Shown: positions 14,464-63,870 of the stretch, in pieces
Layout of the letters: every line of letters begins with the position of its first letter
Numbering within the stretch: the first letter of the stretch is position 1
Assembly: GCA_964016885.1 (NCBI GenBank)
Contig: OZ024740.1
Span: forward strand, 375,286,001 to 375,350,000
Reading direction: 5' to 3'
From: Eledone cirrhosa
Lineage: Eukaryota
Length of the DNA: 64,000 nt
Made by a program: the position numbers and the translations under genes
The notes under the pieces: model-generated
Told to the model about the DNA's origin: nothing
What the model saw: the letters and a program-made list of their open reading frames with translations, nothing else
The model's database searches: none

Positions 14464-14590
14464 TAAATAAAGGATTTTGAGTTCATGCAATTGACTTATG
14501 TTTCGTCACTATATATATATAGAGATATAGATATAGATATAGATATATATAGATATATATTTAATGTATAATAAACAACACAGTATAATT

Positions 14591-14660
14591 ACCTCATTAC
14601 CCGAGGTTTCCCGAACAGGACGGACACAGGAGACGTCCGCATTCGTTCGTCAGATGAAGC
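14591..14660 (-). ncRNA. Type I hammerhead ribozyme in PLE pLTR
   Basis: Minus strand: cttcat-CTGACGA-acgaa..cggac..gtccg..ttcgg-GAAA-cc-tcg-gg-TA-atgagg. Confidence 0.75.
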
Positions 14661-17640
14661 ACTATAACATAGTAAGAAATTTGAAAATACCTCATCAAGA
14701 AAGGCTAAAATGTTTAACGGACAAAAAAATATAAATAAAAATAATAAGACAAAAATATATAAAAATAAAAATATAGAAATATAATGAGATGATGTGTGTA
14801 TATGTACATATGTACATATGTGCATGTGTCTACTGTACATATGTACATATGTGTGTACATATGTACATATGTGCAACTGCATGTGTATAGTGAAAATATG
14901 TATTCGTAAATTACATACATGAGGGCAAATATATTGTCGTATGTGTAACCACAAATACACATATATATATATATACGTTAAAAATAGAATTGTAAAATAA
15001 TGAAGTTTGCGTATATGCAGTCACAAAGACTAAGGGCTGATATATATACACATACAAACGTAAAAGGACGCACGCACAGAAACATATATACACGCAACCA
15101 CATACATGTATATAATATACACAGGGATGGGAATGTATAAAGTAATACGCAGAGTCAGACGGAAGGTCGATACAAATATAAAATATGATGAATAAATGAA
15201 AAAATATATGATTAAAAACAAAATATAATAAATAAAAAATAATAAATAATAAAAATTAAGGTAATGAGAAAGTAAGTGAGGGGGTGTAATAGATAAAGCA
15301 GTACTAGAAAAAAATAATAAGTAAACAAACATGCATACACATAAACACGCTCACACACACATATATATATATATATTTATATATATACATATATATATAT
15401 ATATATATATATATATATATATATATATATATATATATATATATATATATATACATATATCCACACGTACACACACGACCATATGTATATATATATGTAT
15501 ATATATGTATATATATATATGAAAACACATATACATAAACGCACACACACATATATATGCACACATACACGCACACATACAAATGCGTTCGTATATATAT
15601 TCATACACATATACGTACATATACACACATAAGCATACATACATATATAAATCAACAACCATATGAATAATTGGGTACAAAATATACACAAGTTTACATA
15701 CATTAATACGACAGAGGGACACCGAAAAAAATCTGTAGTTAAAAATACAAGTGACATGTAATGTCTGAAAGTTAAAATAAAAGGGGAAGTAAAATAAATA
15801 TAATTATTATATAATTGTTAAAATATATCGTTAATGAATATGAAAAAGAAGGGGAGGGGGGGGGGTCAACTAGTGGATGTAAAGTAAAAGTAAATAATTT
15901 GTAAAACAGATTAACAGGTCTATACATAAGGTAAGTTAAGGAAAGTGAAGAACAAGAGTTTATGGAGGATAAGTTTCTGAAAATGACGTAAGTTCGTATA
16001 AGCTGGAAATCAAATGTGATTTCATGTGTGGGCAACTGGTGAAAATTCTGTTTTAGCATTTAGGCAGGTTTTTGGCGATTTAAGGTTCAATATTTTTCAC
16101 TTATGCAGAGGCTGCAGCTTTTTTATTTCTCTTGTGTATTCTTTAGATTGGTTCAAAATTGACCAATCCAATTTAAACTGAATACCTTTGTCCTTCAAAT
16201 CCCATATTCTGCTAGCCAGAGCTATTGTTAATCTTTTTTGAGGATGTCGGAATGATGCGACATGTGAATATTAACGCGTTTTGAATTTGTCTTGCGTCAT
16301 ACCCACATATCCTTCACTGGTGGCTGGTTGGTTGTTGCTGGTGGTTGTCACTTTGGCCTCATATACAATGGCTTTGGTGTTTCATTTACCTTGTAATGGG
16401 CATTCACTTTTAACTCTACAAGAACAATTTTGATATTCTCTGGGTGTTTTCTTATTAATGATATAATATTTAATAGAGTGACCGCAGGAGTAGCTGATTT
16501 TGACACAGTTTCTATTGAAAATCTTATAGTATCTATGTGTTCTGGGGAGTTCTAGGAATTTAGTTATCTAAGAGTTCTAGGAATGTTCTGCCTACATTAA
16601 TTTTAACTTCTAAAGAGTAGGGATGGGTGATGAACCAGATTATTTTTCTTTTCCTATTATTATGTTTAATGGAGTTAGTATTATTGGGTATGTACTTAAT
16701 AAGTTCATTGAAGCCACTATTTTGAAAGGCTTTATTATAGTCGAGGGAAACCATATTAAAAATAGCTTATGAGGAAGAGAGGGTAGAGATCCTACGGCTA
16801 ATATTTGGGATGAGATTTTTAAATACTATAGGAGGATGGCAAGAGCCTTTATTTATGGTACGGTATATAGGAAGCAGTAGGCAGATCTAGGTTTATATCT
16901 AGAAAATTAACATTAGAAAGGTTTGTGTAAGATTAAAACTATCGAAGGATTTTATTAAGTCTTTCCTGAACCTGTCTAAGTTATGGCCTATAGTTGTATG
17001 GGAAAGTATTAGACCATTATCACGATAACGCCGAATGGTATGGTTAGAAATTTCTCTTTAAGTGTGTGGAGGAGTAATAAGCCGACTAAATCACACACGT
17101 CAGCACAGTTAAAAGAACCCATTGAGACATCAAAGGGGTTCTCTGGGTTAGATCTGTTTACCCTAGTTTCATTATTAGCAAACACTAAAGTATTTTTATC
17201 ATGCAAAATGACATTCTCTTCAATATCAGAAATATTAATAAACTTTCTAGAAAAATGTAATGCTTTCGTTAACAGAGGGAGAGTAATAGACAGGTAGAAG
17301 TCTAGAATGTCAAATTGGGTGAATCTTGAATTATTTTCCCAATTTGACTTCTACCAGTCTATTACTCTCCCTCTGTTAACGAAAGCATTAAATGTTGCTA
17401 GACAGTTTATTAATATTGAAGATATTGAAGATAATGTCATTTTGCATGATAGAAATACACACACATACATATACACACATGCGCATATGTATGTACGTAT
17501 ACTCACATCATCTCACTATATTTCTTTATTTTTATTTTTATATATTTTTTGTCTTATTACTTTTATTTATATTTTTTGTCCGTTAAACATTTTAGCCTTT
17601 CTTGATGAGCTAATTTCAAATATCTTACTATGTTATATTG

Positions 17641-60965: not shown

Positions 60966-62156
60966 TTATATATATATTTACGCACATACACATATATATA
61001 TATATACATTAACAGAGAAAGTTTTATGCGATACTCTGGCCAACTCCATCTCACTCAACAAACATTAGGATATACCTAAGTATAATCCCAATTTAGTGTT
61101 TGGGGTGCTAACTATACAGTATTCCGTGGATAGCTGGTTGTATTATTTTATATGAGACATAATTAAATAAATCCCTCTTTCCTTCCATATGATCGTTTCG
61201 TTAAAAGATTTCTACAATTTGGGATAAATAATGTCCAGGTTATGTAGAAACTTCTATATAATCCATAGATATACACACAAGCGGGCCCTTATAACTCATC
61301 AGTGGATGCCCATTCAATATCGATATAAAAAACTACATCGATATTAATAAATTAGTGATGGTCCCCGTCAGTGCTAAATGGACAGCTACATTTGAAAAGC
61401 CAGTAATCCTTCAAAAAGAAAATTCACACTGTCCCCAAAAAGGAAAGGGGAGGTCATCGTAAAATATAAAATAACATGCACGCTGGTCATTGAAGCCTGT
61501 TAGGTATTTAACCACATGCTTAAGAACACAATTGGATATAAAAAAATAATTATATGTATGTACCATCAATACACACATAGAGATATTAAAGAAATAATAA
61601 TAAATATATGTATGCACTATCTATACACACACATAGGTATATATATTTCCTTCGTCTAACATGTTGAATGACCCGCCAAAAACCGGGGGTTATTTCCTTT
61701 GCTGGAATTAACAGGTGACAGCTATAAATACGATACGCTGCATTTTGCAGCACATTTAGCTTATCACACCTGTTCTGGGTAGAACGAAAAGCCTGTTGAA
61801 AAACTGAATCCTCCGTTCGATCATGAATACCACGAGCTTGCCAGTCACGTAAGTCTGATATTTGATTTCGGATTCAAAGAAACAGTTTAAACGTATAATC
61901 GTTTGATTTGTCCAGGTGTATTTTTCTCAACCTGTTAGTTCTACCGTTACTTTGGTATAGTATTGTGTGTTAGATTTTGCCTACCACAATGTTCGTTTTG
62001 TCAAGCTATTTAAACGTATGATATTATTCTAAGGACCTAACTTATCGAGTGCTTTGCTAATTCATCATTTCATATAAGTAGGCCGAATTCGCTTGCAAAC
62101 CGCCAGAGATTCGATTTTACTAAATTTCCAATTATATATATATACGTTGAGAGGTG

Positions 62157-63870
62157 TATAAAGGAGAACAAACCGTTAAAACATGTTTATTTAAAACAGC
62201 ACCTACGTACGTTTCACCCATAAGGGCTTCTTAACGGCATAACAACTAAAGAGTGTTCCTTATGTGACCCAGAAGGGGTTTTATAGACAAGTTCACATCA
62301 CAGTTCATTCTTCGTAAAAAACATGTATTGATATTGCAGTAGATCAAGGGAGATAACGCCAGCCGGTGTTAGAGCAGTGTTATCCAGGCTATTTGTTGCC
62401 CGTTAGTATTTTATGGTTACTGCTTTACCATTGTCGATTCACGCAGGGTCAGGGATGCAAGATTAGTTTCCACATGTTTGTTTGCAGCGCCTGCCCGTCG
62501 GGGTCGATTCACACCGGGTCTGGGACGCATGGTTAGTTTCCAGATGTTTTTTGCAGCACCTGCCCGCCGGGGTGTTGAGGTTTAGTGCAGAGTGAGCCGG
62601 ATTACGGTTTTCACGCCTCATTCTTATTCCATCTGGAGTAAGAGATTTTTAAGCGGTGCGTGCAGCTTATCGCTGTTTCTGATCTGCTGTTGATGATCTC
62701 ATGGGGTGCCGTTATGATATGGTAAAGCTCCATGAGGCAAAGCTCGCACTTCCTCTTGATATTGTACGGTGCTGCCCCGCCGACAATTTCCCAGTACGTG
62801 GAGAAGCTGATGTTTGAGTCGTTTAATGCTGTGATGTAGTTCACGAGCGAAGTGGAGTGTCTTAGTTTCTTGTTTGTGAAAGAGTAGAGATGTGTTCGAA
62901 ATCTATTTTTGAACGGGCCAGAGGTTGCCCCTATATAATGCTTAACGCTATTATGGCTAGTTACAGTGCACCTATAAATAACCTTATCAGTCAGGCAATT
63001 TCCTCTAAGGGGGCAGCGTCCCCTGTCACGACAGTTGCAATTTCGGTCGCATTTCCTTCTAGTTCCCAAGGTAAGGCTATTATTATTGCTATCTATGTTG
63101 TTACCCACGCCTCTATACCTACCGTTAGAACCATTATATCCCACTGCGTGCGGAGTAGTAACATTATCATTCCGCACACTGCAGCGCCTTCTGTTGTCGT
63201 CGGGTGACCGTACGGGTGACCTGCATATTCCCCAGTCATGTTGCGGTTGTGTTGGTTGTGTCTGTTGTGGCGGTTGCCAGCACTATTAGGTGCTGCTAGG
63301 GAGTCGTTAAGGCCGATATGGTTGTTGTCAAGTCTAAGTGTATCGGTGCTAAGGTGCTGTGTTTTGGTGATCTTACTGTGATTAGTTGTTCCTATGATGT
63401 CTGCTAGGTTAGGAGTAGTAGAGAAGGATATTTTTATATTGTTCCTATTAAGGATTTTCCTATATTTATGGTTGGGTGGGAAGTTCTTCTCTAAGGCTTC
63501 GAAGTATATCCGGGGTATGTCGGAGGCCACAATCCGAGAGTAGGGAGGATGGAACCATAGGATGTTACGATGGCGATTCCGTGTCTTTGTATGTTTGCTA
63601 AGGGTTGTGCTATCAGTGTGACCGTTCTTATGCATGTTATTGTGTGGTAGGCTCTAACACCTGCTGGAGTTATCACCCTTGATCTACTGCAATATCAATA
63701 TAGTTTTTTTACGAAGAATTAACCGTGATGTGAACTTGTCTGTAAAACCCATTCTGGGTCACGTAAGGAACACTCTTTAGTTTGTTATACGGTTGAGAAG
63801 CCCTTTCGGGCGAAACGTACGTAGGTGCTGTTTTAAATATACATGTTTTAACGGTTTGTTCTCCTTTATA
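62157..63870 (-). mobile_element. Naiad-type PLE 3' fragment between ~225-bp inverted pLTRs
   Basis: 62157-62376 is inverted to 63651-63870. ORFs give RNILWFHPPYS..FP.NH.YRKILN..KISFS..NL and CNC...CPLRGNCL..VIYRC..YIGAT..FKNR..H..CELCL..CTH. Confidence 0.92.
62611..63635 (-). pseudogene. PLE linker + GIY-YIG endonuclease in two overlapping frames
   Basis: ORFs 63093-63635 and 62611-63177 join through one frameshift in a low-complexity insert. Confidence 0.85.

What the first reader, a model, noticed from the sequence alone, without database searches (positions are those of the whole stretch)
14560..63870. Polarity rule: inverted units almost always present hammerhead 3' ends outwards into (TA)n
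Seen: the left copy is on minus and the right copy on plus in 14.6/17.6, 23.1/24.1, 24.4/26.7, 26.85/26.92, 27.4/27.8, 30.8/31.1, 41.4/41.7, 49.9/54.5, 56.3/56.4, 60.6/60.8 and 62.2/63.8 kb (some are half or decayed motifs). Only 27065-27252 is reversed. Spacers range from 2 nt to >3 kb, a continuum from coding PLE to pure palindrome. Known: inverted pLTRs at 5'-truncated Penelope copies. Inference: both DNA ends at a TA-repeat break are primed on pLTR RNA 3' ends (or cDNA folds back), producing MITE-lookalikes by retrotransposition.
Basis: partly seen in the sequence, partly recalled or inferred. Interest (0 to 1): 0.75.

Follow-up and report, generated by a model that had tools for sequence, protein, structure and literature searches.

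The report
Head-to-head Penelope ends in TA repeats
These mirror-image repeats are pairs of Penelope-type jumping-gene ends joined head to head with their 3' ends pointing out into TA repeats, a layout already published; each pair nearly always has one long and one short end, likely because both sides of the cut chromosome start copying the element's RNA at two fixed sites.

Summary
The polarity is real. Ten of the eleven listed pairs carry intact, half or decayed hammerheads facing outwards; 56.3/56.4 has the polarity but no hammerhead. In 600 kb of unselected genome, 25 of 25 hammerhead pairs within 1.5 kb face outwards. This is the published head-to-head architecture of Penelope-like elements (PLEs; PMC3846280, PMC8557442), mostly Hydra-clade by protein motifs, which target (TA)n.

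My counts sharpen the mechanism. Each of eight families has two fixed 3' ends, about 40-170 nt apart and downstream of the ribozyme cut site. 142 of 149 pairs join one long to one short end. Junctions vary, so these are not MITEs. The short arm reaches further 5' as often as the long arm (28 vs 28), against simple fold-back. The arms share alleles (3.8% vs 50% discordance), so one RNA source. An RCUCY motif follows 12 of 15 end sites.

Best reading: two-sided priming at internal sites on uncut RNA, matching in-vitro data (PMC11167929). This scan noted the same rule before in this genome and others. Known kind; useful for an open mechanism question.

The parts
14562..17790 (.). Hydra-like PLE unit: short-ended pLTR on minus (hammerhead 14590-14661), decayed RT/thumb on minus (16355-17410), local inverted RT piece 17325-17458, long-ended pLTR on plus (hammerhead 17642-17707, tail to 17790); both ends in (TA)n
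19820..22968 (.).
23091..24388 (.). Head-to-head pLTR pair; left short end with damaged core, right hammerhead near 24142 with a tail of about 138 nt
24421..26807 (.). Head-to-head pair; left short end (core 24462-24485 minus), right hammerhead 26671-26721 with a tail of about 67 nt
26834..27039 (.). Young mini-palindrome: short arm on minus and long arm on plus (78-nt tail), each with the 3' half of a U3-A8 hammerhead; very abundant family
27065..27252 (.). The exception: tail-to-tail palindrome of an older copy of the same family, both arms cut inside the tail and both carrying the same old junction; likely a secondary duplication
27315..27945 (.). Young head-to-head pair (arms 99% alike), hammerheads 27356-27421 minus and 27751-27816 plus, tail of about 85 nt on the right; read-through relatives run into a sense Hydra-type ORF
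29652..29943 (.).
30674..32754 (.). Inverted long-ended arm on minus plus a 1.3-kb partial tandem on plus with short end; hammerheads 30799-30872 (-), 31141-31214 (+), 32443-32516 (+); a SINE-like insert at about 32528-32700
41226..41745 (.). Young palindrome with CCGAAGA-core hammerheads (41433-41481 minus, 41662-41710 plus); tail of about 168 nt on the left
49783..54802 (.). Composite unit: left long-stem hammerhead near 49.9-50.0 kb (minus), Hydra-type GIY-YIG remnant on plus (51161-51901), right hammerhead 54549-54628 from another family; both outer ends in (TA)n
56157..56567 (.). Head-to-head palindrome of a Neptune-like family with no recognisable hammerhead; long end left (40-nt tail), short end right
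60460..60965 (.). Head-to-head pieces of a roughly 316-nt tandem hammerhead repeat (retrozyme-like); both ends short
62146..63886 (.). Hydra-type PLE 3' part on minus (GIY-YIG with CxCx5C linker, 62611-63653) between decayed U3-A8 hammerhead pLTRs; the right arm reads on past the window end

Best explanation
The units are insertions of Penelope-like retroelements in the head-to-head layout, one arm ending at a fixed short site and the other at a fixed long site, likely because both ends of a cut in (TA)n prime cDNA on the element's uncut RNA at two internal sites. Shown here: polarity, two fixed ends per family, near-strict long/short pairing, variable junctions, shared alleles between arms, hammerheads in sense with the ORF. 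Inferred: the GIY-YIG endonuclease cuts both strands in (TA)n; two RT active sites start 40-170 nt apart, 3' of the ribozyme, probably positioned by an RCUCY..GAGY element just downstream of each site; each cDNA runs 5'-ward through the uncut hammerhead and stops at a variable point; the two truncated 5' ends are joined, often through microhomology. Long extension gives a coding unit or partial tandem with one short inverted arm; short extension on both sides gives a pure palindrome that resembles a MITE.
For: Polarity: 25 of 25 hammerhead pairs within 1.5 kb in 600 kb of unselected DNA (P = 6e-8); 117 of 120 tightly joined pairs. Two end peaks in each of 8 families. 142 of 149 distinct outward pairs with both ends classed are long+short; 19 of 20 in the unselected sample and 42 of 43 among pairs not chosen by a query. 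The short arm reaches more than 5 nt further 5' in 28 of 95 tight junctions, the long arm in 28, neither in 39; among young pairs 7, 13 and 16 of 36. The unit at 30674-32754 has sequence unique to each arm, so neither can be a fold-back copy of the other. Two pairs (L113, L252) join arms with different family haplotypes. 43 of 145 junctions overlap. The hammerhead is sense to the ORF. RCTCY begins 4-10 nt after 12 of 15 end sites against a 2.9% background. In raw reads of another sample, 2,232 reads leave the family at the short site into (TA)n. In vitro, an Anolis PLE cuts and extends both strands, starts at two internal sites that delimit the tail, does not need ribozyme cleavage, and is predicted to be a dimer (PMC11167929, parts 1-2).
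Against: Arm alleles are nearly always concordant (18 of 468 vs about 50% permuted in the largest family), which fold-back also predicts. Deletions at palindrome centres could mimic a longer short arm. Local fold-back seems to occur at some junctions (17190-17458). 13 young pairs have the long arm further 5', compatible with fold-back. One identical whole palindrome sits at three unlinked places (L115, L116, L119) and one junction recurs 8 times in 83, so some units may be copied whole. 80 of the 142 long+short pairs come from one family, and families are related, so the motif count is not independent. Frangieh et al. saw no difference in start site between the two strands, so strict long/short pairing is not reproduced in vitro. 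No empty site was recovered.
Confidence: 0.72

Rival explanations
1. One cDNA is primed at the long site, folds back on itself, and the hairpin is resolved by the endonuclease at the short site (self-priming model of Arkhipova et al. 2013; EN-mediated resolution in Craig et al. 2021).
For: Arms share alleles almost always; 39 of 95 tight junctions are symmetric within 5 nt; it explains strict long/short pairing directly; a local fold-back piece is seen at 17190-17458; discussed in PMC3846280 and PMC8557442.
Against: The short arm reaches further 5' in 28 of 95 junctions, 7 of them young; the unit 30674-32754 cannot be made from one cDNA; chimeric arms L113 and L252; both tail boundaries are RT start sites in vitro.
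Confidence: 0.18
2. The short palindromes now move as whole units, either as hairpin RNAs copied in trans or as MITE-like DNA transposons.
For: One family is very numerous (239 and 1,287 first-look candidates); an identical unit sits at three places; two junction types recur 8 and 6 times.
Against: 62 junction types in 83 pairs; the same junction recurs in different subfamilies and lies on a short microhomology; ends are asymmetric, not terminal inverted repeats; single arms without a partner are common.
Confidence: 0.07
3. The pairs are chance neighbours or later inverted duplications at fragile (TA)n runs, unrelated to insertion.
For: The families are dense and share TA targets; secondary palindromes exist (27065-27252; 41842-41955).
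Against: Chance gives equal inward and outward pairs, but 25 of 25 face out; inward pairs are distant (1.5-3.9 kb) and less alike, 67-89%. A later duplication would copy the same end, not pair long with short.
Confidence: 0.03

Closest known systems
Endonuclease-positive PLE insertion with inverted 5'-truncated pLTR and tail (Arkhipova et al. 2013, PMC3846280, parts 1-4 of 5 read; Craig et al. 2021, PMC8557442, passages plus sections 11 and 15)
   Same: Head-to-head inverted pLTRs as the most frequent arrangement, partial tandems, palindromes at the junction, tail often on one end only, microsatellite targets that hide target-site duplications.
   Different: Tails here run about 40-170 nt rather than 30-40. 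The long/short pairing is counted as near-strict (142 of 149). Most units are pLTR-only stubs. The papers lean to self-priming or EN resolution; my counts favour two-sided priming.
Hydra clade of C-terminal EN+ PLEs (PMC8557442, section 11)
   Same: CxCx5C linker, CxxC and CxH motifs near the C-terminus, DKT motif, hammerheads, (TA)n insertion.
   Different: No tree against reference Hydra proteins was built; two window families (56.3/56.4 and 19.8/23.0) look Neptune-like instead.
[quoted passage not shown]
   Same: Short stem I, palindromic stem III, U3-A8 core variant, dual motifs 100-700 bp apart on opposite strands (reported in Schistosoma).
   Different: In the parts read, that paper does not state which way the dual motifs face; a CCGAAGA core is fixed in one young family here.
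Internal two-site initiation by the Anolis Poseidon PLE (Frangieh et al. 2024, PMC11167929, parts 1-2 of 4 read)
   Same: Two start sites delimit the tail, both strands cut and extended, uncut RNA used, AT-rich target.
   Different: Other clade; the parts read do not address inverted pairs or one-site-per-end pairing, and report priming without homology, whereas the end sites here are followed by short TA-like stretches.
Non-LTR retrozymes (bioRxiv 10.64898/2026.07.22.740005, part 1 of 5 read)
   Same: Non-coding tandem units with type I hammerheads derived from PLE pLTRs; fits the roughly 316-nt and 1.3-kb families.
   Different: Here they also occur as inverted long/short pairs.
MITEs / non-autonomous TIR DNA transposons
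   Same: Short, numerous, palindromic look, TA flanks.
   Different: Asymmetric ends, variable centres, frequent single arms, ribozyme and RT/EN relatives.

Membership tests
EN+ Penelope-like elements | PLE-type RT and C-terminal GIY-YIG endonuclease linked to the repeats | tested here: met
   Decayed RT/thumb and GIY-YIG inside three listed units; tblastn to longer ORFs of the same genome to E 3e-18; motifs read. Pfam named none of these fragments.
EN+ Penelope-like elements | Type I hammerhead in the pLTR, sense to the ORF | tested here: met
   not met for the 56.3/56.4 family (20 of 20 copies).
EN+ Penelope-like elements | Partial tandem (pLTR) and inverted 5'-truncated copy at the 5' end | tested here: met
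EN+ Penelope-like elements | Optional 3' tail on one end | tested here: met
   Two end peaks in 8 of 8 families; 142 of 149 pairs long+short.
EN+ Penelope-like elements | Target-site duplication | tested here: inconclusive
   Hidden by (TA)n; no usable empty site among 136 pairs or in public runs.
Hydra clade | CxCx5C linker, no CCHH in EN, DKT motif, (TA)n targets | tested here: met
   CNCRDRGRC at 62.6-63.3 kb and CNCIVKSNC at 51.2-51.9 kb; DKT in read-through relatives L234, L248, L265; definitions.
Hydra clade | Placement in the Hydra RT clade by phylogeny | not tested
   No reference proteins were fetched.
Hammerhead ribozyme | Self-cleavage activity | not testable with these tools
   Structure only.
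MITE / TIR DNA transposon | Symmetric fixed terminal inverted repeats | tested here: not met
   Ends are long+short.
MITE / TIR DNA transposon | Homogeneous internal sequence and length across copies | tested here: not met
   62 junction types in 83 pairs; single arms common.

The most novel reading that the evidence does not exclude
PLE integration is a coupled two-ended reaction: a dimeric RT-endonuclease reads two tandem RCUCY..GAGY signals on one uncut RNA and assigns one start site to each side of a double-strand cut in (TA)n. That one rule would generate the tail, the head-to-head polarity, partial tandems and thousands of MITE-like palindromes.
Probability: 0.45. Interest if true: 0.6.

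Novelty: new member of a known kind. Interest (0 to 1): 0.35.

Why it matters
How PLEs form their tandem and inverted structures is stated as unsolved (PMC8557442 section 15; PMC11167929). The polarity is known, but near-strict long/short pairing, independent 5' truncation of the arms, rare chimeric arms and a shared motif behind both start sites give concrete predictions for the existing in-vitro system. In practice, these palindromes are abundant in this genome and would be mislabelled as MITEs or miRNA hairpins.

Tried and rejected
Rfam scan of the window: only miRNA-like hairpin noise and one tRNA among the 150 rows shown of 228; no hammerhead model in those rows. The repeat finder was swamped by microsatellites, so self-BLAST was used. 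Pfam named none of the five PLE fragments tried. Empty-site search among fetched DNA: 9 of 136 pairs gave candidates, all self-hits or chance joins of common element ends and TA runs. Public runs: what was laid came from other family copies, no piece spanned the locus, so neither an empty allele nor the reversed unit could be checked in another individual. The de novo inverted-repeat list was inflated by SINE pairs and one tandem array and was replaced by nearest-neighbour pairing. The apparent fixed 5' end of the 26.9-kb family was partly query selection: unselected copies are cut at many points. Rejected: MITE origin, chance adjacency, priming at ribozyme-cut ends (the arms run through the cut site). 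Literature searches returned no paper that, in what I read, counts long/short pairing or describes the downstream motif. [quoted passage not shown]
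Full report
Setting. The window lies on contig C1 of a 3.0-Gb genome, rich in (TA)n and repeats. An octopus-like animal is my inference from size and repeat content, and earlier scan notes say the same.

Observation. Self-BLAST recovers the listed inverted pairs. A type I hammerhead descriptor gave 52 hits in the window plus 600 kb of unselected DNA, against 0, 1 and 0 in shuffles. Four listed pairs have two complete motifs, two have one intact and one damaged copy, and 60.6/60.8 has one full and one half motif. 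The half motifs at 26.85/26.92 and the decayed ones at 62.2/63.8 are U3-A8 core variants, shown by longer relatives; that variant is described in PMC4209133. Corrections: 56.3/56.4 has no hammerhead in 20 of 20 copies, though it lies 3' of a Neptune-like GIY-YIG ORF and faces outwards. The two motifs of 49.9/54.5 come from different families. The 30.8/31.1 unit extends to 32754. The right arm of 62.2/63.8 reads on into element body. Further outward units at 19820-22968 and 29652-29943 were not listed.

Is the polarity more than chance? Outside the window, homologous hammerhead-bearing neighbours on opposite strands face outwards in 25 of 25 cases within 1.5 kb and in 26 of 30 within 4 kb; the four inward pairs are 1.5-3.9 kb apart and 67-89% alike (P = 6e-8). 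One of the six 100-kb regions held no hammerheads at all. Among family copies, 117 of 120 tightly joined pairs face out. 20 of 22 outer ends of the listed units lie within 11 nt of (TA)4. (TA)5 lies 3' of 45 of 52 hammerheads and 5' of 12 of 52, background 22%; without one 18-copy array the figures are 27 and 10 of 34. The reversed unit at 27065-27252 has both arms cut inside the tail, no TA between them, and the same old junction at both outer ends, so it is likely a later duplication.

What it is. RT, thumb and GIY-YIG remnants lie inside three listed units, on the same strand as one arm's hammerhead, and read-through relatives run from hammerhead and tail into a sense ORF. CxCx5C, CxxC, CxH and DKT motifs match the Hydra clade definition, which includes (TA)n targeting (PMC8557442 section 11). 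Pfam did not name these fragments, and no phylogeny was run. Non-coding families of about 316 nt and 1.3 kb behave like retrozymes.

What is already in print. Arkhipova et al. 2013 describe inverted pLTRs with a tail on one of them and call head-to-head the most frequently observed arrangement. Craig et al. 2021 describe an inverted 5'-truncated copy at the 5' end, a 30-40-bp tail often at one end only, and microsatellite targeting (passages). Cervera and de la Pena report dual hammerheads 100-700 bp apart on opposite strands.

Mechanism. Each of eight families shows two 3' end peaks about 40-170 nt apart. By the coordinates, the nearer end lies about 18-60 nt past the ribozyme cut site, so the template was uncut there. 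Of 149 distinct outward pairs with both ends classed, 142 are long+short, 5 long+long and 2 short+short (three duplicate inner sequences dropped from 152, and pairs with an unclassed or read-through end left out). The unselected sample gives 19 of 20, and pairs not chosen by a query 42 of 43. 80 of the 142 come from one family. Junctions vary (62 types in 83 pairs) and 43 of 145 overlap, which excludes a fixed MITE for the bulk.

Fold-back or two primers? Fold-back from the long arm predicts that the long arm always reaches at least as far 5'. Observed among 95 tight junctions: short arm further in 28, long arm further in 28, within 5 nt in 39; among 36 young pairs 7, 13 and 16. Several queries selected for complete long arms, which biases towards the long arm. 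The unit at 30674-32754 has unique sequence in both arms, and two pairs join different haplotypes. On the other side, partner arms disagree at only 18 of 468 polymorphic positions against about 50% when permuted (9 of 32 in the 1.3-kb family), so both arms usually come from one RNA source, as fold-back would also give. Centre deletions could mimic part of the asymmetry, a local fold-back piece exists at 17190-17458, and one identical palindrome sits at three places. In vitro, an Anolis PLE cuts and extends both strands, starts at two internal sites that delimit the tail, needs no ribozyme cleavage and is predicted to be a dimer, but showed no strand difference in start site. I put two-sided internal priming at 0.72 and fold-back with endonuclease resolution at 0.18.

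A possible signal. Following a lead from an earlier scan note, I checked the sequence behind the end sites. RCTCY starts 4-10 nt downstream in 12 of 15 sites (background 2.9%), with a GAGY partner within the 60 nt read in 9 of those 12. It is absent in the Neptune-like family and the 316-nt repeat. Families are related, so this is conservation, not independent sampling, and its role is untested.

Novelty. The polarity is published. The counted long/short rule and the downstream motif were not found in my searches (older subscription papers and supplements not seen), but this scan recorded them before in this genome and in others; those notes are not independent support. PMC9977147 and PMC8969392 were seen as passages only and add only that PLE insertions are often very short and that inverted pLTRs and 3' extensions are textbook features. 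Verdict: real, known kind, moderately useful for an open mechanism question. Interest 0.35.

Noticed in passing
window 52297-52370 (+): tRNA-Ala with anticodon GGC (ARAGORN; Rfam 52 bits), unusual for a eukaryote by my recall, inside the composite PLE unit and next to an AT-rich inverted repeat (52479-53683) with no relative in the fetched DNA.
   Followed up: partly
window 737-4387 (-): Uninterrupted 1,216-aa non-LTR retrotransposon frame (RVT_1 E 1e-29); the C-terminus looks like a restriction-type endonuclease (recalled motif).
   Followed up: partly
window 54872-56157: Symmetric 49-bp terminal inverted repeats around what looks like a decayed Tc1/mariner element; a true TIR element for contrast.
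   Followed up: no
window 41842-41955: Near-perfect palindrome of simple sequence centred on (TA)18, without a ribozyme; likely hairpin repair or an assembly effect at a TA run.
   Followed up: no
window 41433-41481 and 41662-41710: Hammerhead with CCGAAGA core, identical in the 40 best genomic matches; a young family with the longest tail seen, about 168 nt.
   Followed up: partly
window 17190-17458: At the inner junction of the 14.6/17.6 unit an RT-coding piece is duplicated in inverted form, suggesting local fold-back or a template jump before joining.
   Followed up: partly
window 26834-27039 family; L135, L144, L145: Most copies keep only the 3' half of the hammerhead, with 5' ends clustered near the stem II loop; 3 of 30 older copies hold the whole motif.
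   Followed up: partly
window 33874-36031: Frames on minus resembling Helitron/PIF1 helicase pieces (motif recalled).
   Followed up: no
L051-L060 (G000:C5:60000001-60100000): 100 kb with no (TA)5 run, no hammerhead and no inverted repeat, unlike the other five sampled regions.
   Followed up: no
L048-L049 (G000:C3, about 200075300-200084700): Array of 18 hammerhead-bearing repeats, most at about 470-nt spacing, arranged as 3 copies on minus facing 15 on plus: a head-to-head retrozyme-like array.
   Followed up: no
window 9061-9300: Unlisted palindrome with a one-sided extension and relatives elsewhere; no hammerhead assigned.
   Followed up: partly
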